In this document: in pieces, positions 1,799 through 40,300 of the stretch
Layout of the letters: each line of letters opens with the position of its first letter
Position numbering within the stretch: the first letter of the stretch is position 1
NCBI GenBank assembly: GCA_964501135.1
Contig: CAZCRI010000001.1
Span: 192,393 to 256,392 of the forward strand
Source: an uncultured Candidatus Saccharibacteria bacterium
GTDB taxonomy: Bacteria; Patescibacteriota; CPR2; UBA1875; CAIMLA01
Direction: 5' to 3'
DNA: 64,000 nt
The notes under the pieces: generated by a model
Told to the model about the DNA's origin: nothing
What the model saw: the letters and a program-made list of their open reading frames with translations, nothing else
Database searches by the model: none
Position numbers and translations under genes: made by a program

Positions 1799-1802
1799 GT
1801 TA

Positions 1803-1827
1803 AGCCCCCACTCGGGGGCTTTTTATT
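1803..1827 (+). terminator. Rho-independent terminator after typA
   Basis: Hairpin AGCCCCC-actc-GGGGGCT followed by TTTTATT. Confidence 0.7.
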
Positions 1828-1836
1828 ACAAAACAG

Positions 1837-1865
1837 TTGAATAAATGGCTCAACGGCACTATAAT
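1837..1865 (+). promoter_or_regulatory. Sigma70-like promoter, TTGAAT-17nt-TATAAT, driving GC-rich cassette 1
   Basis: TTGAAT at 1837-1842, 17-nt spacer, TATAAT at 1860-1865. The RBS AAGGAG lies 6 nt before the ATG at 1920. Confidence 0.55.
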
Positions 1866-1919
1866 GACCGAGCCAAAAGGAAATCTGCAGCCTATGCTGC
1901 CTGACCCGAAGGAGTACCG

Positions 1920-2204
1920 ATGGGAGTCCCGGTAGTAATGCCGGACGGTGAATCTCAGCAGTGGATGATGTCGACAGCTTGCTTCGACCCCGCTACTGGT
2001 CACCTTCACCTCCGCAGGCTCGACACGGTCTATGTGGAAATAGACTACGAGAAGCAGGTTTCGTTTGCTTGGGTTGACGATGTACTCACCCTCGTCTCGC
2101 CTGCTGAAGGTGCGCGCTCACGCTCGTTAGTGGTTGCTGACCAGGTTCTGGTAGATGGCGATGGCCGCTGGGGTATTTACCCACAAAATCGGCGAAGGAG
2201 GTAG
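1920..2204 (+). CDS. Hypothetical small protein (94 aa) in GC-rich cassette 1
   Basis: ORF with AGGAG RBS. GC content (~58%) is clearly above the neighbours. No recognisable domain. Arg-rich C-terminus. Confidence 0.35.
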   Translation: MGVPVVMPDGESQQWMMSTACFDPATGHLHLRRLDTVYVEIDYEKQVSFAWVDDVLTLVSPAEGARSRSLVVADQVLVDGDGRWGIYPQNRRRR

Positions 2205-2206
2205 CG

Positions 2207-2479
2207 GTGGCTATCTTGACGGGACGTTTTCTCACTATCGTCGCGTTGCACGACGTCCGACGTTGTCAGGTGAAGGAAGCTGTGACGAAGAGCCACAAAG
2301 GCTTGGCGGTGACAGAAGACGGCACCGAAGCGGTTCTGGACCATGAAATGAGGGTCGAGGCCATCGAGACTCCTGACGGGTTGTATCTCTTTGAGCCTCT
2401 TGAGGGTCACGAAGTCGCAGTACTGCCCGGACCCCATGTCCGGGTCCTCCAGTGCGGCTACTGGTATCCCGAGCGCTAG
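2207..2479 (+). CDS. Hypothetical small protein (90 aa), GTG start, in GC-rich cassette 1
   Basis: GGAGG RBS 5 nt before the GTG. Immediately follows the previous ORF. No recognisable domain. Confidence 0.35.
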   Translation: MAILTGRFLTIVALHDVRRCQVKEAVTKSHKGLAVTEDGTEAVLDHEMRVEAIETPDGLYLFEPLEGHEVAVLPGPHVRVLQCGYWYPER

Positions 2480-2509
2480 TCCCTACAAGCTCCACAGTGG
2501 AAGGCAATT

Positions 2510-2537
2510 GCCCCCGCGTGGGGCTTTTGTCGTTTTA
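2510..2537 (+). terminator. Rho-independent terminator closing cassette 1
   Basis: GCCCC-cgcgt-GGGGC followed by TTTTGTCGTTTT. Confidence 0.6.
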
Positions 2538-3119: not shown

Positions 3120-3300
3120 AGTATTTTGGGTTGTAAATCGGAGTATTAATGGTCATAGATATCGAACTAACATTAAATAGATTTGGTTTTGGTAGGATCG
3201 CAAAGAATAAGTTTCAACTTGCTTGGTTGCGATTTTCAAAGTGGGAAATACCTGGCAAGCACTCCATCTCTTTTGAGATAAACTGGAAAGAGAAACAGAA

Positions 3301-3663
3301 ATGAATGTAGAAAAGGTTATTGAAAAGCTGAAATCAGAATATCCGGGGAAGAACATAGTTCAGAATTTCCCCGAGAACCCCACAGAGATTGTTTGCGAAA
3401 TAGAGCCAGAAAAGGGTGTTGCAGTCGCCGTTATTGACCGTTCCGAGCCACATCATCACACCAAAACGACCGAGAGCTACCGAGTGATTTCTGGCATGTT
3501 GACTCTCTATATCGATGGTAGCGAAAAAGAACTTGAAAAAGGTGACGAATTCGAGGTTTACCCTGGCGAGGTTCATTTTGCGATTGGTGATGAAACCTGG
3601 GTCGAAGTGACATCAACCCCGCCTTGGACGGCAGACGATCACAATCTTGAAGGAGTCCAATAA
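3301..3663 (+). CDS. Cupin-domain protein
   Basis: Two cupin motifs: HHHTKTTESYRVISGMLT..., then GDEFEVYPGEVHF. Size 120 aa. Confidence 0.55.
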   Translation: MNVEKVIEKLKSEYPGKNIVQNFPENPTEIVCEIEPEKGVAVAVIDRSEPHHHTKTTESYRVISGMLTLYIDGSEKELEKGDEFEVYPGEVHFAIGDETWVEVTSTPPWTADDHNLEGVQ

Positions 3664-5531: not shown

Positions 5532-5945
5532 TTACCAGGATCTGGGCCTGTAGCTGTCACGAGACATCCCTCGTGTAGCTTGGTTTGCGGCAGCGAAAGA
5601 GGTGTTGATACGCCTGGTGTGATTGTGCGTTTCTAGTTCTCTTTCGGCGCGCCACGAGGCGCGTGCTTTGGCAAACCTGTCCTGTTCGACGTAGGACTCT
5701 AGCTCGTTCCGAACCTTGTCGTTCATCATCTGGCGCAGGTTCAGAGTGACCGTGTAGCGGGTACCATTGCGACTGAGCGGCGGATTGAGCCACTTACTCT
5801 TGTCGCTCAAAGAGCGCAAGATAGGATCTGGCAGACCCGCGTTATTCTTCTGTACCAGCCCTTTTGAGCTGTGGAACAGAAGGCAGAGCGCCAGAGCCAA
5901 GCGAAGCTCATGGTTTTCGACGTGTCTTATTATCTCTGGTACCAT
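5532..5945 (-). CDS. Hypothetical protein (137 aa) in GC-rich cassette 2
   Basis: Minus-strand ORF with AGGAG RBS (gagaggagctcgagATG) and its own promoter. GC content is raised. No recognisable domain. Confidence 0.4.
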   Translation of the reverse strand: MVPEIIRHVENHELRLALALCLLFHSSKGLVQKNNAGLPDPILRSLSDKSKWLNPPLSRNGTRYTVTLNLRQMMNDKVRNELESYVEQDRFAKARASWRAERELETHNHTRRINTSFAAANQATRGMSRDSYRPRSW

Positions 5946-17363: not shown

Positions 17364-17391
17364 TTGACAAAAATAGAGAAAGGTGTATAAT
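17364..17391 (+). promoter_or_regulatory. Consensus sigma70 promoter, TTGACA-16nt-TATAAT, reading into GC-rich cassette 3
   Basis: TTGACA at 17364-17369, TATAAT at 17386-17391. Confidence 0.55.
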
Positions 17392-17478
17392 AATCGGATA
17401 GTTCACAAAGAACATCGCACCGCGGCCAAGAGTCGCATACAATCCACGTACAATGCCTAGGAGGCTGCTGTGAAACGT

Positions 17479-17616
17479 ACTATCTTGGATGATTACTTCC
17501 AGGAACGCCTGAAGGTGTTTCTTGGAGCGCTCTACTTCATCGGTCTCTTCCTCTATTTCATCGGGGAAGCGCTTGTAGAGGACGCGATGCGTCCTTTCCA
17601 GCTGTAGTCCAGCGGG
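17479..17616 (+). CDS. Possible small hydrophobic peptide (45 aa, GTG start) in GC-rich cassette 3
   Basis: Perfect AGGAGG 6 nt before the GTG. VKRTILDDYFQERLKVFLGALYFIGLFLYFIGEALVEDAMRPFQL carries one hydrophobic helix. Speculative. Confidence 0.25.
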
Positions 17617-18088
17617 GACAAAAGGCTCTTAGGGCCCCGTAGACACCGTAGCCGGACGGATTCCGGATGTTCCCTTCATGACGAAGGGTCGAGCAAGGAG
17701 GTATCTCCATGAAGATCGCTCGCACTGCAGTCGCCGTTCGCGGCACCCCGGTCGTCAGCTCGTCCATCCTTATGAGTTCTGAATTCGGCATCCGCGGCGC
17801 GCGCGCCGGCACCGGGCCGCACAACTAGGGCCCGGTCGTCTCGCTTCGGGTAGCAACTCCTCAGGCGGGGAGATCCGAAGCGTCAGCACTAGCCTCGCGT
17901 TTCTGACCAGGAATCCTCTCGCGAGGTTGCTCTAACAGCTTGTGCTAAAATGTACGTGGAAATGGGGTCGGGACGATCACACATGGCCGCGCCAAAGGCG
18001 CCGCGTAGTGTTGGCCGTACCGGCCCTTCTCCTTTTAAGGATACGATGTATACTTGTTTCTTTGCCTTCGGCAATCTAGAATATCTAT

Positions 18089-25253: not shown

Positions 25254-28200
25254 TTGGCCAAAAAGCCACGATTCCTGAAAGCTAGAAGCTATTGCAAGAA
25301 GGCAGTAAGTGCATGTTCTGCTATTTTTGGCTTGGCTATCGTTCGCGCTCTTACCTTCTTTATTGATAGGGCCAGAATCTGGCGGTTTGAGCTGATGTAT
25401 AAACTTCATCTCAAAGTTCGTTCGGTCCATGACAACTTGGTAATTAAGAATGTAATCTATAGAAAAGTCACTGAAAATAGGTATGCCATACCGGTGCGAA
25501 ACGCCTCGGTCTCGGCTTTCCTAGTTTCTCTGCTTCTCTTTACCTCTTTGCAGTACTTGTTGCCACTTCTAAATCCATTTAAGGCGACAGGGGTACAAGC
25601 TGGCAGTACAACTTATAATTGGCCGACAAACTCACCTTTTTCAAGCGCAGTTACCACCCCTAATATGGATTTTTCTACAACACCCAATAGCGCACAGCTT
25701 ACCAGAGGTTTGGATCACTATCTCGAAACCGGTACTGGTACAGATGGTTCTCTGACTGTCTCTAACCCCATGACAGTATGGAGAAATGGCGTTCAAGTCA
25801 CTAACGTTACAAGCTACAACATTAATACAGACAAATCTACTCCTAGTAGGGTTTGTAGTGAAGGCGGAGATGCTGTCAATTATTCTGTGACTGCGATTAC
25901 TCCTACAAGTGCAACACTATTAAATACTCCTGCGGCAAACTGTTTGGCAATGGGTGACGAAATACTACTTATTAATCTTAAGGGTACGCCCACTAATTAT
26001 GCCAATGTAGGTAATTATGAAACTTTTACTATTTCAAGTATATCGAGTAATGTAATAAACTTCTCAAGCGTAAAGACAAAATACTATGGAAATGATGGTG
26101 GTGATGCGAATATAGGCTCCACCATAAATGTCAATCAAATTGTAATGCTGCAAAGAGTACCAAATTATAGTTCTGTAAATGTTACTGGTACGTTAACTGG
26201 TAGCTCCTGGGACATAACTTATAAGAAAAACGGTGTTTTATTCTTTAGAAATACGGGTACAACTACAGTGAGTGGTGTTATCACTATGGATGGCAAAGGG
26301 TATTCTGGAGGTACGGTTGTAAATGGAGGCGAGGGATATAATGGAACTGGCGGTAATGGGGGCATTTATAATAGTGTTGGAAATATTGGTCAAGGCGGCG
26401 GGGGAGGAGGAGGTGGAAATACAAAAGCTGGTGGTCAAGGCACTACTGGATCAGGAGGTGGTGGGGGTGGTATAGGTCAAAATAGTTCCACCTGGTTTGG
26501 CGGCGGCGGCGGCGGTGGTGGCTATGGCACAGTGGGAACAGGTGGTTATTATAGTAATAGAATAGGTTCGCCTGGAAGTGGGAATCAGGGTGGTGCAGGA
26601 GTGTCAAGTAATAGTGGAATTGGCGCCAGTGGCGGTGGCGGAGGAATTTATGGTTCCTCAAGTACATTGAATAGTAAAATCTATTTTGGTTCGGGTGGCG
26701 GTGGAGGAGGAACTAGTGGTACCAGTGGGGGTCCCGGATACCCTGGTGGTTCGGGTGGTGGTATCATTCATATCGGTTCAAACAATATTACTGTTTCTGC
26801 TTCTGGGAATATTTCTGCAAAGGGAAGTAAGGGGGGTGATAATGGCACGGCCTATTGGTATGGTTCAGGAGGCGGGGGCGCTGGTGGGTCAGTTTATTTT
26901 TCTTCAAATTCTGTTAATAATTCTGGTACCGTGTCTGCTTCTGGTGGTACTGGGGGCGTAGGAAGTGCTGCTGCTAGTGCTGGTGGCACCGGTGGTTCAG
27001 GAAGAATTGGGATACAACATATTTCCACATCAACTTTCGGGACAATTTCACCCACCCCTACAAATATACAAATTGGTTCATTCACGGGTGTATACCAATA
27101 TGCGTCAAGCGGCAATATTGGAACGGCAGCAACAGATGCTGGTGGGTTGGTTCTTGATGCTGGTATTGGTAGGGCAATAAAGCCCTTTTCTCTCGATTGG
27201 TCTGCCGATACTACTATTAGCGGACAAAAAATATATTTTAAAGTTAGAACTGCGGCCCAATCTTCGGATCTTCACTCGGCGTCGTGCTATGGACCTGCGG
27301 GTAGTGATCCTACCTGCTCAGACTGGTCTACAGTTGGCACATATTTCTCTCAGGTAAACAGCGATGGTTCTATAACTACAAGCCCGTCTGAATTACCGGG
27401 ATCAATTTTAAGTACAATATTGCCGAATAGATATGTTGAAATATTAGTGTATATGGAGGTCGCAGAACGCTCTAGTAGTCCAGTTTTAACTAATCTTACA
27501 CTTTCCTATGATTCGTTAGATTACCCGTCTTATGACAAGTTATTACTATATAAATCTGATGCTTCTACGGTGCTTAAAAATTCATCTGGCTCAAATATTT
27601 CACTAGGTGCCGCAAATTCTGTTGGTGGGTATAACAATGAGTCGACAGTGGTACTTAAGGCTACAGATCTTACGTGTGGTACTGCTGCAAATGATAATTA
27701 TTGTTCAGGTTCAGTTTCTGGCTCTACATCACGTAAGCCCCAGGTTGAAGTGAGGGAAGTAGGTGCTGCCTTTGATGACACAACACTAGTAGAAGGGGCA
27801 AATTACTTTGCATCCGAAAGCACTTCCACTACCTCTACAGGCGAGCTTCAGTCTGGTCAAGTCTCTATAACAGGACTACAAACAGGCAAGCAATATCATG
27901 TAAGAGTTAGAATAGTAGATGCACAAAGCCGTGTATCTGCTTGGACGGCCTATGGAAATAATGCCGAGAGCGTAGCGGACTTTAGTATAGAACAGGATTC
28001 ACCCACACTGTCGACATTCACGATCAATTCAGGAGCATCCTACTCTAGCTCCTCCAATGTAACGCTAAACATTTCGGCTACCGATTCTGGTGGCTCAGGC
28101 CTTTCTCAAATGCAGTTCTCCAATAACGGAACAGACTGGGGTAAAACCGCTGATATTGACGGCAATATCACTGATACTGGCTGGGCAACTTATGCTACCA

Positions 28201-31200
28201 GTTACTCCTGGAATGTGGCAAAGGGTGTGGTAGATGGAGGTAGTGACACGGCTAGGACTGTGTATGCGAGAGTGAGAGATAATGCTGGGAATGTGAGCGG
28301 AAGGTTACACAACACAAAAGCTGATTTTGAGGGTAGTGGGTATCAAAAAGGCTTAGGAACAATAATAGCCGCAAACGGCACTCTCAGTTTACAAACCTTT
28401 AGCGGCTCGGAATCGGTTTCGTTAACAGGAACAGATGGGACAACTCGGACATATACGGGTGCTTCGGAGGTTAATGTTGGTTGGTCGGGTAGTTGTCCAA
28501 ATATTTCCATTAACATTGGCGGTGCCAGTGCTTACTCTGGGGGCGATGGTTCGGGCGCAACTGGGTGGATGAGTGGATCAACAACAACGGTTAGTTGCTA
28601 TGACGATACAGGTGAAAATAGTGCTTCAATAACCTTTAATATCTCGTTTAGGTCAACTCAGCTTCCTGTTTTTGATACCTATTCTTCACCAACAATAGCC
28701 TTGGGTACAGGGTCAACAGCAACCCAAATCGGTTGGGTTAACACTTCCGTTCCCGGTGATTCCTCGGTGAAATTTAAAGTCGCTACAAAAGACTCGGATA
28801 CCGGTTGGCAGACCTCCGACTTTATCGGCCCCGACGATACCGAAAACACCTTTTACGATATAAGTAGCGGCCAGAATCTTTCAACTCAGCATTTGAATAA
28901 AAGATATTTACGCTACAAAGCATTCTTATATTCGACATCAGATCGACTCCAAACACCTATCTTAGATTCAGTCAGTATTTACCAAGCTTTAGTCGCCACC
29001 ACTATTCTTGATACGCAGACACCTACAGGCACGGTGGCTATACGAGATTCTTCGTCTGGTTACGCCTTGAGCAAGAATGTGACCCTGAATCTTGAACCGA
29101 GTGACGCCGCACCATCATCGGGGCTAAAGGATTTTGCTCTTTCTAATGACGGAATCACTTGGTCCGGTTGGACAAATTGGAGTGAAACTTATCGGGCTGC
29201 AGGTGTGGGATATTCATGGACTTTAGCCGCTGGTGCTGATGGAACTCGAAATGTTTATGTGAAATATCGTGATAATGCTGGAAATGTAGGAGGTGTTAAT
29301 ATACCTGGGGATAATTGGACGCCTGGACAAGCTGAAACAGGGTACGCTACGGAGTTAGTGGGAAAATATGTTTACAATTTTGATGACCAATCATATCCGT
29401 ATCTTAAATGGAAATCGGATAGAGCTGATTGTAGCGGCAATCAATGTAGCAAGACAGCTTACCCTGCTCCTGATAGTTTTAATTCTCAAGCCAATGTACT
29501 TGTAAGTCCTCAGTTTAATCCAGGGGTTACATTTGGGACGGAATACCCAGCGCAGGAGGCTTGTAGTCTGATTGGTGGCCGTTTACCGAAGGTTAATGAA
29601 CTCAGGGCAATTTATGCAGGCAAGGTTGCTGGTCACTATAGTAACCTTGACGATTATTCATATTGGACTGCGACAGAGGTCCCTTGGAGCAGTGGCAATA
29701 GAACTTCGGCCTACTTGGTTCAATTTTATAATAACGGGAATCTTAGTTTCGATGTTAAAGATAGTACTATAGCAAGAACTAGGTGCGTTGCAGACGTTAC
29801 TCCTACAATAGGGGTTTCTGTCACACTTGACGTTTCCGGACCTGCCACCACTCTAAATATCAACCCGGCCACCCCAAATGGTGACAACGCTTGGTATAAA
29901 ATTGGTAAACCTACGGTTGCCTTTTCGTCCTCGGACAGTGCCTCGAAAACCGATAAAACATATTATGAATTTGTAACAACTGGCGCAGCTGCGCCAACGG
30001 TAGGTGCTTACACCAACACCCTAACCAACTCCGGGCAGGTTGACCCATATCAACCGTCTATACCTGTTGGTAATATACCAGAGGGGGATAACACACTGTA
30101 CTGGTATGCCGTAGACAAGGCGGGTAATGTAGAGAGCGTTCATAATCAGCAAATAAAGGTTGATATCCAAACACCTGCCACCACATATGTAATAGATCCT
30201 GAATTACCAAATGGCGACAACAACTGGTATACACTTACGGCGCCTACAATTACACTGAGCAGTAACGATCCCGGCACACCTAATTATTCTGGAGTGGCGA
30301 CACTTTACTACGCCTGGGAAACAGATACCAACCAAGCAGGTTGTACAGCACCGAAGTACTGGGAATCAAATGTAGGACGTTGCTTTAACGTCTACGCGGG
30401 AGCTTTTTCTCCGAATGATGGGAGCCACACACTGTATTATTTTTCGAAGGATAATGCTGGAAATGCCGATGCCGTTACTACAGAACAAATTTCCTACATT
30501 TCTCAGTTACCAAGCGTACCTTCGAATTTTCGGGCACCTGTGGGCGATCCAGAGACGGACGGCTCACACATTAAACTTTATTGGAATGCTTCAAGCTCGG
30601 TATCTGGCATTGTGGCTTATCAAATATTGAGGAAAAGGGAGATTGATAGCTGGGGCCAGCGCGATGCTACAATTGACTTACCGCTTCCGTTGAGTAATAC
30701 GATATACTTAGACTCGAACGAAACAACCACCCCAAATGGCTTGAATATTTTGGAAACTGGGCAACGGTATAACTATAAGATAAGGGCGCGTGATAATGCG
30801 GGGAACTGGGGCTCTTTCTCTACAGATAAACTGGGGTATACTGCAGACTTTATATCTCCGACACCAGTTACTGGAGTTTTGGCGGAAGCCTGTGACGGGA
30901 CACTTTATGACTCTCAAAATAGCCCAAATGGAAAATGTAGCGATATTGGCAACGAAGGGTTTGAGGTCAAGCTTACTTGGAATAGCTCAAACGACACTGG
31001 AGTTGGTATGTCCAAGTATATCATTTATCGTTCTACAACCAATTCGGCAGATGAAGCTGAGTGGCCAGTAGTGGGGGTGTTGGAATACGCTTCTGGGCAG
31101 GAGACCATTTGGTTTGATAATGACACCAATAACGCTGCTACTTTTACTACTGACAAACCTTCTGCTACCCCGATACTGAACGATTCAACCGATTATTATT

Positions 31201-34200
31201 ATCGTATCAGAGCTTTTGATAATACTGAATCAGGAAACCCAACAGCATTATTTCCGTCTGATCCTGGGCTCTTTCTTTCTAACTTTAGCTCTACTACAAC
31301 CCCTGATGTTACTGCACCGACCGTTCCAAGTAATGTTGTTGCTTCACCGCTTGGTCTTGACTCATCGGGCAGCCATCAGAAGGTTCATCTTACTTGGAGT
31401 GAGTCGAAGGATTACAGGCGACGCTCTAGTGATGAGGTAGCAGGGATTGTAAACTATAACGTTTACCAAGCTACCAATCCCGCAGGACCATATACCTTGG
31501 CGAGAACAACATCTGAGATTGTCATTGACCTAGATGGGTTAGATGAATTTACTAACTACTATTATGCAGTGGAATCATATGACAGTGTTCCGAATACCTC
31601 AGCTCGTTCTGACTCCGCTACGGCCCGGACAGCTTCCAACTCGGTACCAACAACTCCGACTGATGTAACAGTGACAACTAAGACGGGTGACCCTGCGACG
31701 GATTCACAGATCGGCCACAAAAACACCATTAGTTTTAATGGGTCTTATGCTAAAAATTGCCTGAACTCAGTTGGTTGTTTGACAAAGTATGAAGTCTATC
31801 GCTCCACGAATAATTATTCTGATTATCAGACATGGCTTACGAATGGAACAAAAATTGCTGAAGTAGCACCAGCTGATCTTCGGGATGACCGCACGGCGAC
31901 AGTACAGAACAATCAGGGTAATGTGGTTAGGAGCGAGCCTTATCAGGTGGTAGATACCGGCCAGATTTATCCGGCAACTTCTGCGAATGGGCTTACCAAC
32001 GCCACTACTTATTACTACAGGGTTTGGGCGCTGGATAATACACCTGATCCAGTAACTGGCGGAGTTTGCCCCGTGACCCTAGTAGGGGTTCAGTGTAATT
32101 ACCATTCACCAATGACGACAGTAGAAGTTGGTACACCACACGCTGGTTGGGACACGACTGCAGATGATGAAGCTCCTGCCTTACCGACCGAACTCAAGGT
32201 GAAGGACATTCATGATGACGGATACGCCTTTAAGCGCAATATTATTACCTGGGCGCGTATCGAAGACCCTCTCAGGAATGGCACGAATGACTTTTATGAA
32301 TACCGAATTTACCGATCAGATGATGGAGTTACTTGGGAACAAATATGTACCGATGGCACCAATCAATACCTGCAAGCAGAATGCGGCCTGCCGAATGAAA
32401 GTCATTACAATCCTCTTTTTAATGCGGATCAAGAACTAGGGCTCGCCACGAACTATTATATGGATTTGATACCAAATTCGTTGGCAAACCAATATTATTA
32501 TTATCACGTAACAGCAGTTGATAATGCTGGATCTAGTTTTCGCTATTCAAACGGCCAGGTGATAAATAAAGTTGGTAATGTGACTTACTCGAACGAGTCT
32601 GAACCTGCAAGAGACGGAAATGGTAACATCGTCTCTGAGTCGCTAAATCCGGCAATCGCAAAGCCTACGATTACAACAACGGGTGCCTTTGCACCAAGGA
32701 TGGTGAATGTAGGAGTCTCCTCGGCGAGTCTTCAGTGGTATGCCGATCAGCCGACAGACTCAGTGGTAGAGTTCAAGGCGGTATCAGATACAGAATGGAT
32801 TACGATAGGTGAGCGAGAGAAAAAGAACCCAGATACACCTCACGTTGTAAATCTTTTCGGTCTTAGACCAGCTACGGAATATGAATATAAACTCATTTCT
32901 AGAAATAGTTTAGGCAACGAGGACGTTCTCGGTGACCGGCAAGAAGAAAAGGTGACGGTCCCGAACTTTACAACCAATTCATTCACAGTCAACTATCAGG
33001 CCGATAAGATAGAGAAGTCCACAGTATCTATTAAGCTTTTCTGGACCACGAATATGCCTGCAAATACAAACATTGTCGAGTATAAGCTTAGCAACGGTGA
33101 CCAGACTGGTTCGACAGCGGAGACGCCAGTGAATCTAGATGCAATACCTAGTAACGGACGAAATTGTGCAGCGACGCCGTCGTTGTGTAATCACACCGTT
33201 ACTCTATCTCCACTCCGCGGAGCTAGTGAGTATACTTTCAAGATAAGGGCGATGTCACTTGATGGGTTCAATACCGAAACCTCTTTTCTTTCGTTTATCA
33301 CTGATAACGCCGATACTAGGCAATTTACGATGGTGCCCTCATCTTCGAACGTAGCTGATCGCAACATCACTGCTACTTCGGCACAGATTGTATGGCAAAC
33401 TGCAGTTCCGACCACGGCAATTGTTCACTTTGGGACTTCTAAATCTGGTCCATATGCTAGCACCGCTACAGACAGCGTCTTTAGCTCCTCACACGTGGTT
33501 GTTCTCGAGGGGTTAACCCCGGGCGAGACATATTACTATTGGGTGGAAGCTAAGGACATCAATAACTTGGTTTACTCTTCTCCGGAATACTCCTTTAAGG
33601 CTGTGCTTAAGCCAAAAATCTCTAACATGCAGCTCAAGAATGTAACACCATACGCCGTAACGATTGCCTGGGACACCAATATTGAGACAGAGACAGTTAT
33701 AAACTGGGGCAAGACAGCTGTTTATGGCGAGAAACGAGGGGTTTCTGGTCTAAGTAAAGTACATCAAGTGGTGATAGACAATCTGGAAGACAATCAGGAA
33801 TATCATTATCAGATCCTGGCTAAGGATGAGACGGGCAATGAAGTTGCAGATACTGACAAGATTGTTCGTACCCCCCTCGACACCGAGGGACCAAAGATTA
33901 CCAATGCCAAGACTGATATTCTCCCTATGGGTGAGAATGACACAACCGCATCAGTGATCATCTCTTGGAATACCAATAAACCAGCTACCACGCTCGTCGA
34001 GTATGATGAAGGTATCATCGGCGGCGGCTATGGTAACAGGTCTGTGGAGGACACTTCGCTAAATACTTCACACACCGTTATCATAAAGAACCTAAAGCCA
34101 GCATCCTCATTTCACTATCGTATGGTCTCTGCTGACAAGCGTAACAACATCACGCAGTCGCAGGACTACACCTTCGTCACACCGACGAAAGAAAAGTCCA

Positions 34201-34304
34201 TCCTACAGCTCATCTTAAAGTCACTCGAGGAAACCTTCGCTTGGACAAAGAACCTCAATCAATTCTTTGGAAATATTGGCAAAAGAATCACTGGTAAAAA
34301 GTAA
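25254..34304 (+). CDS. Giant cell-surface protein 1 (3016 aa, TTG start). It has an N-terminal membrane anchor, a Gly-rich region, Ig-like/Fn3 repeats, a DUF1566/C-type-lectin-like domain and a C-terminal Fn3 (purple-acid-phosphatase-N-like) array
   Basis: GGGAGGG RBS. TM VSAFLVSLLLFTSLQYLLPLL. Poly-Gly tracts (GGGGGGGG). A recurrent DNAGN motif at Ig-like domain ends. A lectin-like ...CSLIGGRLPKVNEL...YWTATE...RCVAD segment near nt 29530-29790. The C-terminal ~730 aa are paralogous to the next gene. Confidence 0.8.
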   Translation: MAKKPRFLKARSYCKKAVSACSAIFGLAIVRALTFFIDRARIWRFELMYKLHLKVRSVHDNLVIKNVIYRKVTENRYAIPVRNASVSAFLVSLLLFTSLQYLLPLLNPFKATGVQAGSTTYNWPTNSPFSSAVTTPNMDFSTTPNSAQLTRGLDHYLETGTGTDGSLTVSNPMTVWRNGVQVTNVTSYNINTDKSTPSRVCSEGGDAVNYSVTAITPTSATLLNTPAANCLAMGDEILLINLKGTPTNYANVGNYETFTISSISSNVINFSSVKTKYYGNDGGDANIGSTINVNQIVMLQRVPNYSSVNVTGTLTGSSWDITYKKNGVLFFRNTGTTTVSGVITMDGKGYSGGTVVNGGEGYNGTGGNGGIYNSVGNIGQGGGGGGGGNTKAGGQGTTGSGGGGGGIGQNSSTWFGGGGGGGGYGTVGTGGYYSNRIGSPGSGNQGGAGVSSNSGIGASGGGGGIYGSSSTLNSKIYFGSGGGGGGTSGTSGGPGYPGGSGGGIIHIGSNNITVSASGNISAKGSKGGDNGTAYWYGSGGGGAGGSVYFSSNSVNNSGTVSASGGTGGVGSAAASAGGTGGSGRIGIQHISTSTFGTISPTPTNIQIGSFTGVYQYASSGNIGTAATDAGGLVLDAGIGRAIKPFSLDWSADTTISGQKIYFKVRTAAQSSDLHSASCYGPAGSDPTCSDWSTVGTYFSQVNSDGSITTSPSELPGSILSTILPNRYVEILVYMEVAERSSSPVLTNLTLSYDSLDYPSYDKLLLYKSDASTVLKNSSGSNISLGAANSVGGYNNESTVVLKATDLTCGTAANDNYCSGSVSGSTSRKPQVEVREVGAAFDDTTLVEGANYFASESTSTTSTGELQSGQVSITGLQTGKQYHVRVRIVDAQSRVSAWTAYGNNAESVADFSIEQDSPTLSTFTINSGASYSSSSNVTLNISATDSGGSGLSQMQFSNNGTDWGKTADIDGNITDTGWATYATSYSWNVAKGVVDGGSDTARTVYARVRDNAGNVSGRLHNTKADFEGSGYQKGLGTIIAANGTLSLQTFSGSESVSLTGTDGTTRTYTGASEVNVGWSGSCPNISINIGGASAYSGGDGSGATGWMSGSTTTVSCYDDTGENSASITFNISFRSTQLPVFDTYSSPTIALGTGSTATQIGWVNTSVPGDSSVKFKVATKDSDTGWQTSDFIGPDDTENTFYDISSGQNLSTQHLNKRYLRYKAFLYSTSDRLQTPILDSVSIYQALVATTILDTQTPTGTVAIRDSSSGYALSKNVTLNLEPSDAAPSSGLKDFALSNDGITWSGWTNWSETYRAAGVGYSWTLAAGADGTRNVYVKYRDNAGNVGGVNIPGDNWTPGQAETGYATELVGKYVYNFDDQSYPYLKWKSDRADCSGNQCSKTAYPAPDSFNSQANVLVSPQFNPGVTFGTEYPAQEACSLIGGRLPKVNELRAIYAGKVAGHYSNLDDYSYWTATEVPWSSGNRTSAYLVQFYNNGNLSFDVKDSTIARTRCVADVTPTIGVSVTLDVSGPATTLNINPATPNGDNAWYKIGKPTVAFSSSDSASKTDKTYYEFVTTGAAAPTVGAYTNTLTNSGQVDPYQPSIPVGNIPEGDNTLYWYAVDKAGNVESVHNQQIKVDIQTPATTYVIDPELPNGDNNWYTLTAPTITLSSNDPGTPNYSGVATLYYAWETDTNQAGCTAPKYWESNVGRCFNVYAGAFSPNDGSHTLYYFSKDNAGNADAVTTEQISYISQLPSVPSNFRAPVGDPETDGSHIKLYWNASSSVSGIVAYQILRKREIDSWGQRDATIDLPLPLSNTIYLDSNETTTPNGLNILETGQRYNYKIRARDNAGNWGSFSTDKLGYTADFISPTPVTGVLAEACDGTLYDSQNSPNGKCSDIGNEGFEVKLTWNSSNDTGVGMSKYIIYRSTTNSADEAEWPVVGVLEYASGQETIWFDNDTNNAATFTTDKPSATPILNDSTDYYYRIRAFDNTESGNPTALFPSDPGLFLSNFSSTTTPDVTAPTVPSNVVASPLGLDSSGSHQKVHLTWSESKDYRRRSSDEVAGIVNYNVYQATNPAGPYTLARTTSEIVIDLDGLDEFTNYYYAVESYDSVPNTSARSDSATARTASNSVPTTPTDVTVTTKTGDPATDSQIGHKNTISFNGSYAKNCLNSVGCLTKYEVYRSTNNYSDYQTWLTNGTKIAEVAPADLRDDRTATVQNNQGNVVRSEPYQVVDTGQIYPATSANGLTNATTYYYRVWALDNTPDPVTGGVCPVTLVGVQCNYHSPMTTVEVGTPHAGWDTTADDEAPALPTELKVKDIHDDGYAFKRNIITWARIEDPLRNGTNDFYEYRIYRSDDGVTWEQICTDGTNQYLQAECGLPNESHYNPLFNADQELGLATNYYMDLIPNSLANQYYYYHVTAVDNAGSSFRYSNGQVINKVGNVTYSNESEPARDGNGNIVSESLNPAIAKPTITTTGAFAPRMVNVGVSSASLQWYADQPTDSVVEFKAVSDTEWITIGEREKKNPDTPHVVNLFGLRPATEYEYKLISRNSLGNEDVLGDRQEEKVTVPNFTTNSFTVNYQADKIEKSTVSIKLFWTTNMPANTNIVEYKLSNGDQTGSTAETPVNLDAIPSNGRNCAATPSLCNHTVTLSPLRGASEYTFKIRAMSLDGFNTETSFLSFITDNADTRQFTMVPSSSNVADRNITATSAQIVWQTAVPTTAIVHFGTSKSGPYASTATDSVFSSSHVVVLEGLTPGETYYYWVEAKDINNLVYSSPEYSFKAVLKPKISNMQLKNVTPYAVTIAWDTNIETETVINWGKTAVYGEKRGVSGLSKVHQVVIDNLEDNQEYHYQILAKDETGNEVADTDKIVRTPLDTEGPKITNAKTDILPMGENDTTASVIISWNTNKPATTLVEYDEGIIGGGYGNRSVEDTSLNTSHTVIIKNLKPASSFHYRMVSADKRNNITQSQDYTFVTPTKEKSILQLILKSLEETFAWTKNLNQFFGNIGKRITGKK

Positions 34305-34398: not shown

Positions 34399-37300
34399 GT
34401 GATGAAACCTAAAAAAGCTCAGCTAAATTCAGTGTGGAAACGAGCTACAAAGCTACTATCGAAAAGTAGTAATTTTAGGTTACGCAAAAGTTTTTTTACT
34501 CAAATTCCGTTGCGTTCACTATCCTTCGTCTGGTCACTCTTCAAACATATTATTTCTTTCCTAGCGAAGAACGTTATCTTGGTCCTTATAAATTTTATTG
34601 ATTATCTAGTAAAACTGCTCCAGATATTACGCTATGAGCTGACCTATAAATTCCACCTCAAGGTTCGCTCGGTACATGACACTTTGGTAATACGTGTGCC
34701 GGTTTACAAGAAGGTTACAGAACATCAGCTAGCTGTCCCAGTACGCAATGCAACTGTATCGGCTTTCTTCTGCTCATTAGCAATCTTTTTATCTCTCCAG
34801 TATGTACTGCCTCTTTTTAATCCGTTTGCCCCACAGGGAGCTCACGCGGGATCAAATAGTGCGACCTGGACCACAGATTCTGACTTTAATAACAATACAA
34901 TTACAACAAACACACCTACAACCAAGAATACAACAAATTTTGCAGGTACAGTTCTTGCCACAACCGGTAGTACTTCAGTTGTGGGCACGGGTACATCTTT
35001 TGCAGATTATCTGGATCCTTTTAATACTCCTAAGGCTATTAATATAGACGATGTTTCTTATGGTGTGGCTAGTGTGACCGACAATACCCATCTGACACTT
35101 ACTGCAAACTATCAAGGGACTACTGGCTCGGGGAAAACATTCACCTTTGATAATGTTGTAGTGAATGATGATGCCATAAGTCTACGTAAATATGGTCTCC
35201 CTGTAACTAAAACTTCAACTTTTACAGTTCCTAGCGGTGTCACGAAAATATATATTGACATGAAGGGTGGCGGAGGCGGTGGTGGTTCTACTGTTTATTC
35301 TGGAGGGAATTGCGGACAAGCCGGAGGCGCCGGGGGATACTCAGCGCTTAAGATTGATAACGGACTAGAATACTGGGCATTCGGCGGCGGCGGAGGTGGA
35401 GGAGGTTGCCCTAACTTTGTTGGGGCAACAGGCTCTCCTGGAACCTATAATCACCGAAACGTTCCCACCTTAATACCCGTTGATGGAGGGGCAAATAATG
35501 GAGGTATAGGGGGTTACTATGCAAGTACTAGCCGTGGAGGTAATGGTGGTGCGGGGGGCAGGATCACGGGCACATTGGCAGTCACTGGGGGTCAAGTTGT
35601 CACAATAACAAATGGTGCTGCAGGGGTTGGTGCTACTGGCCCAAGCGGATGGCCAAAGGTAAACGGAGCGAATGGATCCGCAGGCTCTGTAGAGGTACTG
35701 TATTACATCCCTGCATTTGCAGGAAATGGTAATATAACTGGCTTTAAAATTGATGCAGGGGCAGGACTTAAATATAAGTGGAGTTCCTTATCATGGGTTA
35801 CTGATGCCTTACCAAGTAATACATCGGTGAGGTTTAAATACAGAACATCAGACGACGGTTCCAGCTGGTCTGATTCTACCTGGTCACAAACAGGAACGGC
35901 ACAAATAACTGGTAGTTCAGGAGGAGCTTCTTTGACCAGTTTGAGTGCTTCCAGATACTTGGAACTTCAGCTGCTGCTGTATTCCGTAGACGGAGTCTAT
36001 TCCCCTAAGCTAAATGAGTTTATAGTACAGTACGATACCTTGGAAGCACCCTTAAATGAAAACCTATCGTTAACTGACATAAGTAATAACTCATTAAGAA
36101 CCACAACGGGTATGATTACAGACGTTCCGATCGAGACCACTTCTATACCGGCGGGGCATTCCAGATATGGAACTCCAAACACTTGGACAAATCAAGCTAC
36201 AGTAAGGCTTAAGGCAAACAACCTTACCTGCGGGAGTGGTGTGACGGCATGTACTGTTACTTCTACAAACCTAAGACCAGAAGTGGAGATAAAGCCTATT
36301 GTTAATGGGGTTCCAACGGCATTTACGGGCAGTGGAGTGACGGCAGATGAAGGCAAGACCTATGTCGATATTTCTGGTTTAGCTACAAACTCAGCCTACC
36401 ATATCCAAGTAAGAGCCGTGGATGGTCAGGCCAGAGCATCTGCCTGGGTGTCGTATGGAAATAACGGAGAGTCGGAACCAGATGTTACGGTAGAACAAAC
36501 GTCTCCCACCCTTCAGCTTAATGGTTTTGCGGATCAAGCTGGCAGTGATATTTTGGAAAAAGGAGGTGTGCTATACACCAGGAGTAATCAGGTAAAGATG
36601 AAGATTGGAACCTCTGACAATGGGGGTATACGTTCGAACCTTGCAAAAGTAATGATAACTAACAACCTCGACGACACAGGGTGGCAGGATGTTACGAATC
36701 AAATTACAAACTATCAGACACAGTATCTTGGACAATCATCGTTTACTGGGCTAGTACCCTGGACTCTTGAGGGCACGGACGGAGTAAAGACCGTTACTGT
36801 CAAAACTGTAGACAATGCTGGCAACGTCAGTGGACAGAGCATTGTGACTTCAACGGAGCTATCTACTACCGATAGTACTTTTGTGGTTTCTCCTGCAGGT
36901 AATGCGGGCGGCGCTGTAGTTGTAGATAATAAACTTCAGTTATCATCGACAACTAGTGGCGGAGTGGGTAGTTCGACTACCTCTGTATACCCAACAAATG
37001 ATGAAACTACATACTGGGATGAATGGTGCGGAGGCTGGTCATTGGATGAAAACCCAATGGGCACCAATTCTGGCTACGATAATGACTGTGGGAGTTGGGG
37101 GCAAGATGCGCACATTACCTTCAATAACGGTTTAGTTTCTGGTCTAACAAATGCAAGTATAAGGATTACCAGTAATGGTGATGCACTTACCTGGGTCTGG
37201 CATGATACGACAGGTACTTCTAATAGTGTTAATCTGACTACTAATACACCAAATTCACTAGATATCACGGCAATGGTCCAGGCAGATATTGCGAATGGTG

Positions 37301-40300
37301 ATACCTACACTGACGTGTGGGTAAACAACGGAATGGGTGTATATTCAATGGAGGATCCGATTCCTAGTTATAGGCCCCAATTAACACTAACAGCAAGTAC
37401 TCCAAGTACAACTACCTTTGACACACCAGAAACATTTACCTCTCGTATTCTCTATAGCGGTGCCACAAGTCCAGACTATAGTGCATTTACCACTAGTCAG
37501 ACAAATAACGGACAAACCATTTCATATCAGATGCGCTCGGGTAATAATGCCACTACTATCGATGGTTCGTGGGGCAGTTGGTACTCGGTAACGCCTGGTA
37601 GCTCTATAAATGCAAATCTTAGTGGCACGAACAGGGGTTATTTCCAGTACAAGGCAACTCTATCCACATCTAATCCGGCAGTTACACCAACTATCAGCAG
37701 TGTAACTGTGGCTGGTGCATATACGCCTCCTTCTGAAGGTACGGTGTATTCGGCGAATATCACTCTTGATCTTATTGGTCCGGCAACTTTTGATGTTTCT
37801 CTGCCAGCCGACAATACTTGGAGTGGCTCCAATAAGCCGACCCTAACCTGGACGGCCTCCCAGGATAATCCAGGGTCGGGACTGTATAAATATGAACTCT
37901 ACATGGATGGGGTACTTAAGAAAACCATTGATGACACTACCGTGGGGGCAACGGCAAACATCCTTAGCGCTACTCCTGGGAGTGACGTGTCATATACCTT
38001 ACAAACTGGCGAGGAATTATCGGAAAAGATGCATACTTGGTATGTGAAAGCATATGACAAGGCACTAAATACCGCCGATTCTACCAGGGGAGTCAGCAAC
38101 CCTTTCCATATTGGTTATGATAGCTCGCTTCCGAATACCGTGCCAACTACAGATATCTCGGCTCAGGCGTCTGGGTGGTTTACCACGAGCCCGCAAATCA
38201 CTCTTACGGCTACAGATCCAGGCGCAGGTGATGGTTCTGGTATCTCCGAGATTAAATATCGTTGGGATAATAGCGATCTGTCAACCGGTGCCACTACTTA
38301 TGCTTCGGCGATAAACATGTCGGCCACTATTGGAGACGGCACGCACGTTTTATATTTCCGCTCCAAGGATACTGCAGGAAACTATGAATCAGTAAAACAG
38401 CAGACCTACAAACTCGATACTATTAACCCAAACACAGATTATTCTATAAGTAACACTCCGCCGAACGGTGACAATGACTGGTACGTAGGAACTGCGCCTA
38501 CTATTTCGCTTACCCCGCATGATGAAGGAAGTGCGAACGCTTCGGGTGTGGCCACTACAAAATATCAGTGGGTCAACCATGGTGCTCAGCCAGGGGCAAC
38601 ATGGCTTACTGGCACTAGCTTTGCCGCATCGCTTGGGGATAAGACACTTTACTACTACTCTACAGACGTAGCTGGGAATGATGGTGCACAGTATGAGCAA
38701 CAACACGTAAAATTTGACAATGTGAGCCCTATTTCTCCGACTGGCTTTGATGCTCCCACAGATAGAGCGTATACGGATTCGATCTACCTCAAATGGAACG
38801 GCGTTACTGACACTTCAGGTGTCCAGACCTATCAGTTGAGAAGAAAAAAAGATAGCGATACCTGGAGCGGTTTGTCCGTTGTTGATTTGGGAGCTGTCGG
38901 GAATATAACCACCTATACAGATGCTAATGGTCTAGAAGCTGGCTATAAATATACTTATCAAATAAAAACCCAGGATAATGCAGGCAATTGGAGCGACGGC
39001 TGGTCGAGTGGTAACCCAGACCAGGTAGTTGGCTATACTATCGATACCGTAACGCCGACAGTCCCTAGTGGCGTCGTCGCGGCAGCTTGTGATGGATCCG
39101 GGGCTACGCTTGCGATCCCAGATACTGACCCGGCAGTGACCACGCCAATATGTACTAGTATTAGCAATAAGGGCTATGAAATCACGTTATCTTGGAAGCA
39201 AGCGGGTGATACGGGTGTGGGCCTTGGCGGATACAAGATCTACCGTTCGGCTGACGGCGATACTGCCGATGAGACCAAGTGGGTGATGGTAGGTGTGCTT
39301 CCTTGGACTGGCGCCGAGGTACTCAAGTGGAATGATAACAATACAAACAACTTAGCAACCTGGGACATTGGAACGTACCCAAGTACGCATCAGAAATCCG
39401 GACAACAGGCAGGGAAGACGGATCCTTCAGATCCATTGAGCGACTCTACCACTTACTACTATCGAGTCACCGCCTACGACGCTGTTAATAACGAGAGCGC
39501 ACTGTTCCCACCAATTTTCCCAGATCCAGACATGAACAGGACGGCTGCTGTGACCCCAGACGTTACCGCGCCTGGCTGGTTTGATGTACAGGGAAACCGA
39601 ATCAGTGACGCTGGCGTTTCTGCTGTGGCACTCGGCCTTGATGGTAGTAACCTCGATGACGAAAACATTGGTCATCAGCGAATAGTAGTAAGCTGGAACA
39701 CTGCTATCGACAAAAAACACAACGGGGATGTTCTCGAAGGTTCGGTACCTAGCTACGAACTATACCGCTCAGCGACTAGCTACCAAACTGACGGTGAGTG
39801 GCTTGCGAGTGCTACCAAACTTACACTGAGCCCAACTACGGCCGTGACCTACGAGGACAACGGGCTCGCTGACTCGACAGTTTACTATTATCGAGTGCTT
39901 ACCTATGACGTGAGCGCCAACAAATCAGACCTCTCCAGTCGGGAGGGGAGTGACCACGCCACTACCTATGATTCTAATATCCCATCAGCTCCGAGTGAGG
40001 TCCGTGTGTCGACGGCAAAGGGAGATCCTAACGTCGCAGACTCCCAAGTGGGAAACACGATAAACATTAGCTTTAAGGGAAGTAACTCCAAATATCGTGA
40101 AATTGTGAAGTACGAGGTTTATCGTTATGAAGCGGATACTAATAATCTTAGTAACAGCCAGTGGCTTGATAGTACGCAGACCACGAAACTCAAGATTTCC
40201 CACTCAGATAGTTGTGGTAGCAAGTGCGAGACCTATACGGCTGGGTCCTCAGGCGGCGACATCGAGATTACGGCGAATCAGGATGACCGCGATAATGAGT

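What the first reader, a model, noticed from the sequence alone, without database searches (positions are those of the whole stretch)
1837..2537. GC-rich mini-cassette 1: promoter, two small ORFs and terminator inserted between typA and a membrane protein gene
A ~700-bp segment at ~58% GC sits in a ~45% GC genome. It is preceded by a near-consensus TTGAAT-17-TATAAT promoter. It contains two back-to-back small ORFs (94 and 90 aa) with AGGAG/GGAGG ribosome-binding sites, the second with a GTG start. A G/C-rich intrinsic terminator closes it. Neither protein resembles a family I recognise. The same architecture recurs at three other loci in this window: 5.5-6.0 kb, 17.4-18.1 kb and 56.3-56.9 kb. 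This looks like a family of horizontally acquired small expression cassettes. Their high GC would fit an actinobacterial host if the organism is a Saccharibacteria-like episymbiont. Alternatively they are a novel small-protein system such as toxin-antitoxin or host-interaction peptides.
Basis: seen in the sequence. Interest (0 to 1): 0.72.

Follow-up and report, generated by a model that had tools for sequence, protein, structure and literature searches.

The report
GC-rich orphan two-gene operon after typA
A self-contained, GC-rich two-gene unit encoding two small proteins of unknown function sits after the typA gene in one narrow clade of Patescibacteria; it is a real, old, inherited operon, not a recent import, and its function is unknown.

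Summary
Window 1837-2537 is 56.2% GC against 45.7% for the window (peak z = 3.5). It contains a TTGAAT-17-TATAAT promoter, two coupled ORFs (94 aa; 90 aa with a GTG start) with AGGAG-type sites, and an intrinsic terminator.

Both ORFs are real genes. Against a related genome, dN/dS is 0.22 and 0.17, substitutions are in excess at third codon positions, and there are no frame-breaking indels.

The gene-1 family has only five 50%-identity clusters among 1.84 billion representatives, plus a divergent copy in L005. Every copy lies directly after typA. One outgroup (L011) has typA directly next to the membrane gene, an empty site.

The unit therefore looks like an old insertion that has been inherited vertically. 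Its GC3/GC4 excess persists in all seven lineages although neutral sites are near saturation. No donor, phage, plasmid, toxin-antitoxin or defence homologue was found.

The "same architecture at three other loci" claim fails. Islands B and D are unrelated single minus-strand ORFs. Island C is probably a fast-evolving non-coding RNA.

Function is unknown. My best guess is a co-translated small-protein complex under leader-mediated control.

The parts
1802..1829 (+). typA intrinsic terminator. It marks the upstream boundary and is not part of the cassette.
   Evidence: AAGCCCCC-ACTC-GGGGGCTT plus a T-tract. It is conserved in L002.
1837..1865 (+). Cassette promoter: -35 TTGAAT (1837-1842), 17-nt spacer, -10 TATAAT (1860-1865).
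   Evidence: 10 of 12 consensus matches. A TATAAT or TACAAT -10 box is present at the same place in all seven cassettes.
1866..1919 (+). Conserved 5' leader. It starts with GACCGAGCC just after the -10 box, contains a 5-bp hairpin (GCAGC 1887-1891, loop CTAT, GCTGC 1896-1900), and has the AAGGAG ribosome-binding site at 1909-1914.
   Evidence: The leader is nearly identical to L002 (3 mismatches in the 54 nt from the -10 box to the ATG) although synonymous sites are near saturation. In the hairpin, 94% of cells are paired against 14-57% in slid controls. Two of the 5 pairs show compensatory changes, CG<->UA and AU<->GC. The hairpin forms in every single-sequence fold.
1920..2204 (+). Gene 1 (94 aa). 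It encodes an acidic, cytoplasmic, all-β protein that founds a clade-restricted family.
2207..2479 (+). Gene 2 (90 aa, GTG start, AAGGAGG at 2195-2201). It is translationally coupled to gene 1 and diverges fast.
   Evidence: dN/dS is 0.17, there are no indels, and it is 51% identical to the L002 orthologue. The gap between the genes is -1 to +19 nt across loci. Form b in four relatives is only weakly related (hhalign E = 0.002). In L005 it is replaced by an unrelated ORF of about 142 aa.
2510..2535 (+). Cassette intrinsic terminator.
   Evidence: GCCCC-CGCGT-GGGGC followed by TTTTGTCGTTTT. An equivalent GC-rich hairpin with a T-tract follows gene 2 in all relatives.

Best explanation
This is a clade-restricted, autonomously transcribed two-gene operon. 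It lies between typA and a membrane-protein gene, probably because it was inserted there in an ancestor of a narrow Patescibacteria clade. Since then it has been inherited vertically under purifying selection while its sequence diverged quickly.

Shown:
- It has its own sigma-70-type promoter, a conserved 5' leader with a covarying hairpin, two tightly coupled genes with strong ribosome-binding sites, and its own terminator.
- Both genes are protein-coding.
- The GC excess is at synonymous sites and persists in every lineage.

Inferred mechanism:
- The two small, acidic, cytoplasmic β-rich proteins are made together in near-equal amounts from one mRNA and act as a heteromeric complex.
- Gene 1 is the conserved core, an OB/cold-shock-like β-barrel. 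Gene 2 is the fast-evolving, replaceable partner.
- Expression is set after transcription through the leader hairpin, either by stabilising the mRNA or as a binding site, possibly for the gene-1 protein itself.
- The high GC is maintained by selection or a local bias. It is not left-over foreign composition.

The cellular target is unknown. An RNA- or ribosome-related role is only a weak lead, based on the OB-like fold, a marginal RimM-like hit for gene 2 form b, and the typA neighbourhood.
For: Anatomy.

Coding status: dN/dS is 0.22 and 0.17, differences are in excess at third positions, and frame and length are preserved.

Distribution:
- Gene-1 relatives occur only directly after typA, in L002, L007, L005, L012/L013, L014 and L015.
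- HMMs find no copy elsewhere in 672 kb of related loci.
- Only 5 clusters exist in 1.84 billion representatives.

Empty site: L011 has typA, then 87 bp, then the membrane-gene orthologue.

GC maintenance:
- GC3 of the two genes is 0.55-0.81 against 0.34-0.52 for typA and the membrane gene, in all seven lineages.
- Four-fold sites in typA are 0.28-0.43 identical against 0.27-0.31 expected at random.
- A1's GC4 exceeds typA's in every lineage.

Coupling: the intergenic distance is -1 to +19 nt, with a ribosome-binding site inside the end of gene 1.

Leader: it is almost invariant against L002, and the hairpin covaries.

Charge: both proteins are acidic, and neither sequence shows a signal-peptide-like N-terminus or a hydrophobic transmembrane stretch on reading (sequences; pI and GRAVY).
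Against: - Acidic proteins are not typical nucleic-acid binders.
- Complex formation was not tested.
- Gain versus loss rests on a single informative empty site (L011). L009 and L096 have rearranged neighbourhoods.
- The hairpin is only 5 bp, its single-sequence z-scores are unremarkable, and L015 does not fit it well.
- No expression data were available.
Confidence: 0.6

Rival explanations
1. Recent horizontal acquisition from a GC-rich donor, for example the actinobacterial host of an episymbiont. On this view the GC excess is un-ameliorated foreign composition.
For: - GC and GC3 are clearly above the genome values.
- The unit is self-contained and sits between genes that are adjacent in L011.
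- Partial amelioration from a very high starting GC3 cannot be strictly excluded for the closest pair, where dS is about 1.1-2.6.
Against: - The cassette is at the same site in all seven close relatives sampled.
- Four-fold sites are near saturation across these lineages, yet every lineage keeps the GC excess.
- No homologue exists outside the clade in the 5.8-billion-cluster search or in the 1.84 billion representatives.
- There are no phage or plasmid hits.
- There are no flanking repeats, integrase genes or tRNA genes.
Confidence: 0.07
2. A type II toxin-antitoxin, or other addiction or defence, module. Gene 1 would be the antitoxin and gene 2 the variable toxin.
For: - Two small, adjacent, co-transcribed and translationally coupled genes.
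- Fast evolution.
- The second gene is exchangeable: forms a, b and c.
- Deviant composition.
Against: - No hit to any Pfam toxin or antitoxin family, and none in PADLOC, at E up to 1.
- Both proteins are acidic, whereas the classic pairing is an acidic antitoxin with a basic toxin.
- No DNA-binding motif was detected in gene 1.
- It is single-copy, at a fixed site, and stably inherited across lineages with saturated synonymous sites. Toxin-antitoxin loci are usually patchy and mobile.
- The family occurs in one clade only.
Confidence: 0.1
3. A domesticated remnant of a phage or other mobile element. It would be a 'moron'-type accessory unit, for example anti-defence or superinfection exclusion, left in the chromosome after the carrier element was lost.
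For: - The architecture matches the moron definition: its own promoter and terminator, GC different from the neighbours, and an insertion between otherwise adjacent genes (PMC3594210).
- Small acidic proteins are common among phage anti-defence proteins (my own background knowledge).
Against: - No phage genes lie nearby. The flanks are typA and conserved core genes.
- No PHROG hit.
- No IMG/VR, INPHARED or BFVD match.
- Phage-derived orphan genes usually have lower, not higher, GC than their host (PMC11293555).
Confidence: 0.13
4. The ORFs are spurious. The GC-rich segment would be a structured non-coding RNA, with long ORFs arising only because GC-rich DNA has few stop codons.
For: - GC-rich DNA here is open in several frames.
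- A neighbouring GC island, C, does look non-coding.
- GC-rich islands in AT-richer genomes often mark RNA genes, such as the 16S gene at 60830-62288.
Against: - Both ORFs show third-position excess and dN/dS of about 0.2.
- The reading frame of both genes stays open in six divergent genomes, with no frame-shifting indels and similar lengths.
- Every copy has a strong ribosome-binding site.
- Protein-level conservation allows a confident AF2 model.
- No Rfam hit even at E up to 1.
- Antisense peptides are not conserved.
Confidence: 0.02

Closest known systems
Phage 'morons' (for example the HK97 gene 15 element; PMC3594210)
   Same: An independent transcription unit with its own promoter and terminator, GC content different from the surrounding genes, and a position between two genes that are adjacent in a relative.
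   Different: It lies in a bacterial chromosome between core genes (typA and a conserved membrane protein), not in a phage or prophage. It has no phage homologues. It is old and vertically inherited across a clade. Its GC deviates upward.
Type II toxin-antitoxin operons
   Same: A bicistronic, tightly coupled pair of genes of about 90 aa each with their own promoter. Evolution is fast, and the second gene is exchanged while the first is kept.
   Different: No recognisable toxin or antitoxin domains. Both proteins are acidic. The chromosomal site is fixed, the locus is single-copy, and it occurs in one clade only.
Cold-shock domain / S1 / OB-fold small β-barrel proteins (CspA-like; Unr CSDs)
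Taxonomically restricted (orphan) genes of prokaryotes (PMC11293555)
   Same: Short, lineage-restricted, faster-evolving but under purifying selection, with no annotated function.
   Different: Orphan genes normally match their genome's GC and GC3, or are lower if phage-derived or de novo. This operon and its neighbours B and D are about 10 points higher in GC and 15-30 points higher in GC3. The excess is kept in every lineage.

Membership tests
Type II toxin-antitoxin system | Two small, adjacent, co-transcribed genes | tested here: met
   One promoter and one terminator. The gap between the genes is -1 to +19 nt in seven loci.
Type II toxin-antitoxin system | Recognisable toxin family or fold (PIN, RelE/ParE, MazF/CcdB, Doc, HipA, GNAT, and others) | tested here: not met
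   No Pfam, NCBIfam or PADLOC hit at E up to 1 for gene 2 of the window. Forms b and c were scanned against Pfam only, also without a hit. No PDB sequence hit below E = 0.047.
Type II toxin-antitoxin system | Antitoxin with a DNA-binding domain (RHH, HTH, AbrB, Phd/YefM) | tested here: not met
Type II toxin-antitoxin system | Toxicity of one product, neutralised by the other | not testable with these tools
   This needs expression experiments.
Phage moron | Own promoter and terminator | tested here: met
Phage moron | [quoted passage not shown] | tested here: met
   0.562 against 0.457. GC3 is 0.59-0.67 against 0.43-0.45 for the flanks.
Phage moron | Located between genes that are adjacent in related genomes | tested here: met
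   In L011, typA and the membrane-gene orthologue are 87 bp apart. This is the only informative outgroup.
Phage moron | Resides in a phage or prophage genome | tested here: not met
   The flanks are core cellular genes. There are no PHROG, IMG/VR, INPHARED or BFVD matches.
Cold-shock domain / OB-fold nucleic-acid-binding proteins | Five-stranded β-barrel of OB/CSD topology | tested here: inconclusive
Cold-shock domain / OB-fold nucleic-acid-binding proteins | Sequence match to the CSD or S1 profile, including the RNP1 and RNP2 motifs | tested here: not met
   No Pfam hit for any family member. No PDB sequence hit.
Recently acquired genomic islet (horizontal transfer) | Compositional anomaly | tested here: met
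Recently acquired genomic islet (horizontal transfer) | Patchy presence among close relatives, and/or homologues in a donor lineage | tested here: not met
   It is present in all seven close relatives. There is no homologue outside the clade.
Recently acquired genomic islet (horizontal transfer) | Mobility traces (integrase, transposase, tRNA target, flanking direct repeats) | tested here: not met
   The window has no tRNA gene. The only 'repeat' is the pair of terminator palindromes.

The most novel reading that the evidence does not exclude
This Patescibacteria clade may carry a set of selectively GC-maintained, strongly promoted orphan transcription units. These would be the typA-linked two-gene operon, the basic 137-aa protein B, protein D, and a fast-evolving GC-rich RNA at island C. 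On this reading the high GC is itself functional, for example for RNA stability or structure, or for activity in a GC-richer partner cell. The typA-linked pair would be a new OB-fold RNA-binding module that regulates its own mRNA through the leader hairpin and acts on the ribosome or on translation.
Probability: 0.1. Interest if true: 0.7.

Novelty: new member of a known kind. Interest (0 to 1): 0.4.

Why it matters
Candidate-phyla-radiation bacteria have tiny genomes, and most of their lineage-specific genes have no known function. Here a compact, probably strongly expressed two-gene unit has been kept at one chromosomal site across a whole clade. It evolves fast and holds a GC3 about 15-30 points above the genome. 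That is the opposite of what is reported for prokaryotic orphan genes in general (PMC11293555). Its retention in such reduced genomes points to a selected, clade-specific function. If the GC excess really is maintained, it also raises the question of what force maintains it. The practical value is modest:
- a new small-protein family with a usable structure model;
- a covarying leader element;
- a clear set of experiments.

It also corrects the idea that these islands form a family of recently imported cassettes.

Tried and rejected
- **Family scans.** Pfam, PHROGs, NCBIfam and PADLOC scans of A1, A2, B, D and the two tiny ORFs of island C found nothing significant. A Pfam scan of gene-2 forms b and c and of further gene-1 members also found nothing.
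- **Gene 1 and gene 2 as tandem paralogues.** BLASTP gave E = 0.006 over 49 aa. hhalign gave only 0.33% and 1.8% probability. Unproven.
- **Gene-2 forms a and b as homologues.** hhalign gave E = 0.002 and 13% probability, but the HMMs do not cross-detect. Likely, given the same position, length and C-terminal motif, but not proven.
- **Phage or plasmid origin.** Four IMG/VR scans, three INPHARED tblastn searches, three PLSDB searches and a BFVD fold search all found nothing.
- **First structure model.** The two-sequence alignment gave pLDDT 40 and was unusable.
- **The 2179-aa hit to the gene-1 profile (P0128).** I judged it spurious, because it is a low-complexity match in an adhesin-like repeat protein.
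- **RimM-like hit for gene-2 form b.** E = 0.047 is too weak to use.
- **Rfam.** Nothing at E up to 1 on the cassette or on island C, and nothing at E up to 0.1 on the whole L017 and L018 loci, which contain the corresponding islands.
- **Overlapping antisense gene.** The open frame is the expected by-product of GC-rich codon usage, and the peptides are not conserved.
- **Flanking repeats or target-site duplication.** None.
- **Further outgroup to polarise gain versus loss.** L096 has a different neighbourhood and is uninformative.
- **Look-ups that failed.** The window's own typA record and its membrane protein are not on record. The afdb50 fold library was unavailable.
- **TM7 primer test.** It relies on primer sequences recalled from memory and gave no support for Saccharibacteria.

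Full report
**1. Observation**

The segment 1837-2537 is 56.2% GC, against 45.7% for the 64-kb window. The peak 400-bp window is 58.3%, which is 3.5 sd above the mean, and only 1.1% of windows reach 56%.

- typA ends at 1798 and has its own terminator at 1802-1821.
- The promoter is TTGAAT-17-TATAAT at 1837-1865. It scores 10 of 12 and is the second-best match in the first 20 kb.
- ORF1 (A1) is 1920-2204, 94 aa, with AAGGAG at 1909-1914.
- ORF2 (A2) is 2207-2479, 90 aa, with a GTG start and AAGGAGG at 2195-2201.
- A GC-rich terminator lies at 2510-2524 and is followed by a T-tract.
- A 177-aa membrane-protein gene follows at 2586.

The GC excess is at the synonymous level. GC3 is 0.59 and 0.67 for the two ORFs, against 0.37-0.51 for every other gene in the window apart from the GC-island ORFs.

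**2. The ORFs are real genes**

A related MAG (GCA_041738615.1, 'Patescibacteria group bacterium'; locus L002) has the same order: typA, a 91-aa gene, a 90-aa gene, then the membrane gene. The comparison between the window and L002 gives:

| Gene | aa identity | Differences per codon position | dN/dS |
|---|---|---|---|
| A1 | 62% | 21/19/42 | 0.22 |
| A2 | 51% | 27/31/58 | 0.17 |

A2 has no indels. The flanking genes are far more conserved: typA 99%, the membrane protein 85% and pyrG 97%. So the cassette genes are under purifying selection but evolve several times faster than their neighbours. Antisense and alternative-frame ORFs are not conserved, and Rfam finds nothing.

**3. Distribution**

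- The word-indexed search of 5.8 billion clusters found one A1 homologue and no A2 homologue.
- The exhaustive HMMER search of 1.84 billion representatives with the A1 profile found five clusters, all 88-97 aa. It also gave one hit that I judge spurious, in a repeat-rich adhesin-like protein.
- Every A1 relative lies immediately after typA and is followed by a coupled second small gene. These are L002, L007 (GCA_964511435.1), L012/L013, L014 and L015, plus a divergent copy in L005 (HMM E = 4.8e-9).
- Profile HMMs find no other copy in 672 kb of related sequence.
- L011 (typA 84% identical) has typA followed after 87 bp by the membrane-gene orthologue. That spacer holds only a terminator and the conserved TGTAAAAT promoter. 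This is an empty site.
- L009 and L096 have rearranged neighbourhoods and no A1. The direction of change (gain, not loss) therefore rests on one informative outgroup.

**4. The second gene varies**

The window and L002 carry form a. L007, L012, L014 and L015 carry form b (94-96 aa), which has conserved K-C, C, D-G-H-W and H-A-P-K-V positions. L005 carries an unrelated ORF of about 142 aa.

Forms a and b align weakly over the C-terminal half (hhalign E = 0.002, probability 13%). They share position and length and are probably diverged homologues. Gene 1 and gene 2 share a C-terminal '[VI]-x-[VIL]-[LF]-x-DG-x-W' flavour, but paralogy is not statistically supported.

**5. The composition is maintained, not residual**

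In all seven lineages the cassette is GC-enriched: 0.52-0.60 against 0.43-0.49 for the typA flank. GC3 of both genes is 0.55-0.81, against 0.34-0.52 for typA and the membrane gene.

At four-fold sites of typA, pairwise identity between lineages is 0.28-0.43, against 0.27-0.31 expected at random. That is close to saturation. Yet A1's GC4 (0.46-0.72) exceeds typA's (0.24-0.48) in every lineage.

I infer that, after roughly a full turnover of neutral sites, a purely historical foreign signal should have largely decayed. Something (selection on the RNA or on codon choice, or a local mutational or repair bias) therefore keeps these genes GC-rich.

This is unusual. Prokaryotic orphan genes generally match their genome's GC and GC3, and phage-derived or de novo orphans are lower (PMC11293555).

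**6. Leader**

From the -10 box to the ATG, the window and L002 are almost identical (3 mismatches in 54 nt) despite near-saturated synonymous sites. Across seven cassettes a 5-bp hairpin (window 1887-1900, GCAGC-CUAU-GCUGC) is kept with compensatory changes: GUGGC/GCCAC in L007 and L012, and GCGGC/GCCGC in L014.

In the pair counts, 94% of cells are paired, against 14-57% in slid controls. Two of the five pairs have changes on both sides. Only 3 of 500 shuffles reach the observed covariation score. The hairpin also appears in each single-sequence fold.

It is small, and L015 fits it poorly. I take it as a probable post-transcriptional element, either an mRNA stabiliser or a protein-binding site. 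That is inference.

**7. Proteins**

No library recognises either protein, and no PDB sequence matches. The only marginal hit is the RimM N-domain for form b, at E = 0.047.

- With six family members, AlphaFold2 gives an all-β model of gene 1 with pLDDT 86.5 and pTM 0.76, although only two of the five models are confident.
- Foldseek finds nothing against the PDB or BFVD.
- Both proteins are acidic (pI 4.1-5.5 for most copies) and hydrophilic. On reading the sequences I see no signal-peptide-like N-terminus and no hydrophobic transmembrane stretch.
- The spacing between the genes (-1 to +19 nt, with a ribosome-binding site inside the end of gene 1) implies coupled translation.

**8. Most likely mechanism**

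- *Shown:* an autonomous, conserved, protein-coding bicistronic operon that is restricted to one clade and kept at one site.
- *Inferred:* the two products are made together and act as a heteromeric complex. Gene 1 is the conserved OB-like core and gene 2 the fast-evolving partner. The leader hairpin sets expression.
- *Speculative:* an RNA- or ribosome-related role, suggested by the OB-like fold, the RimM-like hint and the typA neighbourhood. The typA linkage can equally be explained by vertical inheritance of one insertion.

**9. Rivals**

- *Recent transfer from a GC-rich donor.* Contradicted by the fixed site in all close relatives, the saturation test, and the absence of any donor homologue among 1.84 billion cluster representatives of about 15 billion proteins.
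- *Toxin-antitoxin.* The architecture fits. But there is no toxin or antitoxin domain, both proteins are acidic, and the locus is stable and clade-restricted.
- *Phage moron remnant.* The architecture matches the definition (PMC3594210). But there is no phage context or homologue, and the GC deviates in the 'wrong' direction.
- *Spurious ORFs or an RNA gene.* Refuted by the codon-position pattern.

**10. The other three islands**

- **B** (5532-5945, minus strand) is a single basic 137-aa protein (pI 10.4) with a TTGATA-17-TAAAAT promoter. It is conserved before pyrG in L002 (72%) and L007 (38%), with dN/dS of 0.18. Its GC3 stays at 0.59-0.66 against 0.44-0.51 for pyrG.
- **D** (56316-56720, minus strand) is a single 134-aa ORF with no strong promoter match. 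A terminator-like hairpin lies upstream of its start codon.
- **C** (about 17364-18035) has a perfect consensus promoter and only 45-aa and 39-aa ORFs. Close relatives (L017, L018) have a promoter, 400-700 nt of GC-rich sequence and a terminator at the same site. Only the first 60 nt or so and the sequence after the terminator are alignable, and no ORF is conserved. It is probably a fast-evolving non-coding RNA with no Rfam match.

A, B and D share no sequence similarity. So the islands are a compositional class, not a family of like cassettes. Related loci also carry several further GC-rich islets, so this is a property of the clade.

**11. Novelty and verdict**

This is a new small-protein family in a moron-like but chromosomal, old and vertically inherited operon. 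In kind it is a taxonomically restricted accessory operon, so a new member of a known kind. Its one unusual property is a persistent upward GC deviation, shared with the neighbouring orphan units.

Recent horizontal transfer, an actinobacterial donor, a shared architecture across the four loci, and toxin-antitoxin do not. Interest is moderate at 0.4.

Noticed in passing
window 17364-18035: Island C is the most GC-rich stretch of the window (up to 0.615). It has a perfect TTGACA-16-TATAAT promoter and a terminator-like end (GGCCGTACCGGCC followed by CTTCTCCTTTT). It contains only a hydrophobic 45-aa ORF and a 39-aa ORF. Relatives L017 and L018 have a promoter, 400-700 nt of GC-rich sequence and a terminator at the same site, but only the first ~60 nt and the sequence after the terminator align, and no ORF is conserved. 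It is probably a fast-evolving non-coding RNA. There is no Rfam match, and the fold z-score is -2.96.
   Followed up: partly
window 5532-5945 (minus strand): Island B encodes a very basic 137-aa orphan protein (pI 10.4) with a strongly conserved C-terminus (HTRRINTSFAAANQATRGMSRDS). It has its own TTGATA-17-TAAAAT promoter. It is conserved before pyrG in L002 (72%) and L007 (38%), with dN/dS of 0.18, and its GC3 stays at 0.59-0.66. It may bind nucleic acid.
   Followed up: partly
window 56316-56720 (minus strand): Island D is a 134-aa orphan ORF with GC3 of 0.72. It has no family, phage or plasmid match. No strong promoter was found, and a terminator-like hairpin (56819-56795) lies upstream of its start codon.
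   Followed up: partly
window 56850-57425: A non-coding stretch of about 575 nt contains a perfect TTGACA-16-TATAAT promoter with an extended TG (56978-57005). A leader of about 420 nt follows, before the 554-aa gene at 57426. It could be a riboswitch, a leader or a small RNA. There is no Rfam gathering-level hit.
   Followed up: no
window 3149-3304: A 51-aa ORF (MVIDIELTLNRFGFGRIAKNKF...) lies just upstream of the cupin gene. It is 84% identical in the distant relative L011 and 76% in L007. That is more conserved than the 177-aa membrane protein (53% and 71% in the same loci), so it is probably a real small protein.
   Followed up: partly
window 25254-34304 and 34399-42621: Two adjacent giant ORFs of 3016 and 2740 aa, with internal GC-rich patches at about 35.25-35.7 kb and 39.05-39.6 kb. 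They may be surface or adhesin-like proteins of the kind common in episymbiotic CPR bacteria.
   Followed up: no
L005 12262-12690: In this relative the second cassette gene is replaced by an unrelated ORF of about 142 aa, while a divergent gene 1 is kept. This looks like partner-gene exchange within the cassette.
   Followed up: partly
L002 4401-5642; L005 5541-6340: A GC-rich, gene-free gap of 0.8-1.2 kb lies between the dinB-like (IMS) gene and a methyltransferase gene. This region is upstream of where the window begins. It may hold another non-coding RNA or uncalled small genes.
   Followed up: no
window 60830-62288: A complete bacterial 16S rRNA gene (Rfam, 1521.7 bits). It accounts for the GC-rich patch at 61.5-62.3 kb. 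The TM7-specific primer sites, as I recall them, do not match.
   Followed up: partly
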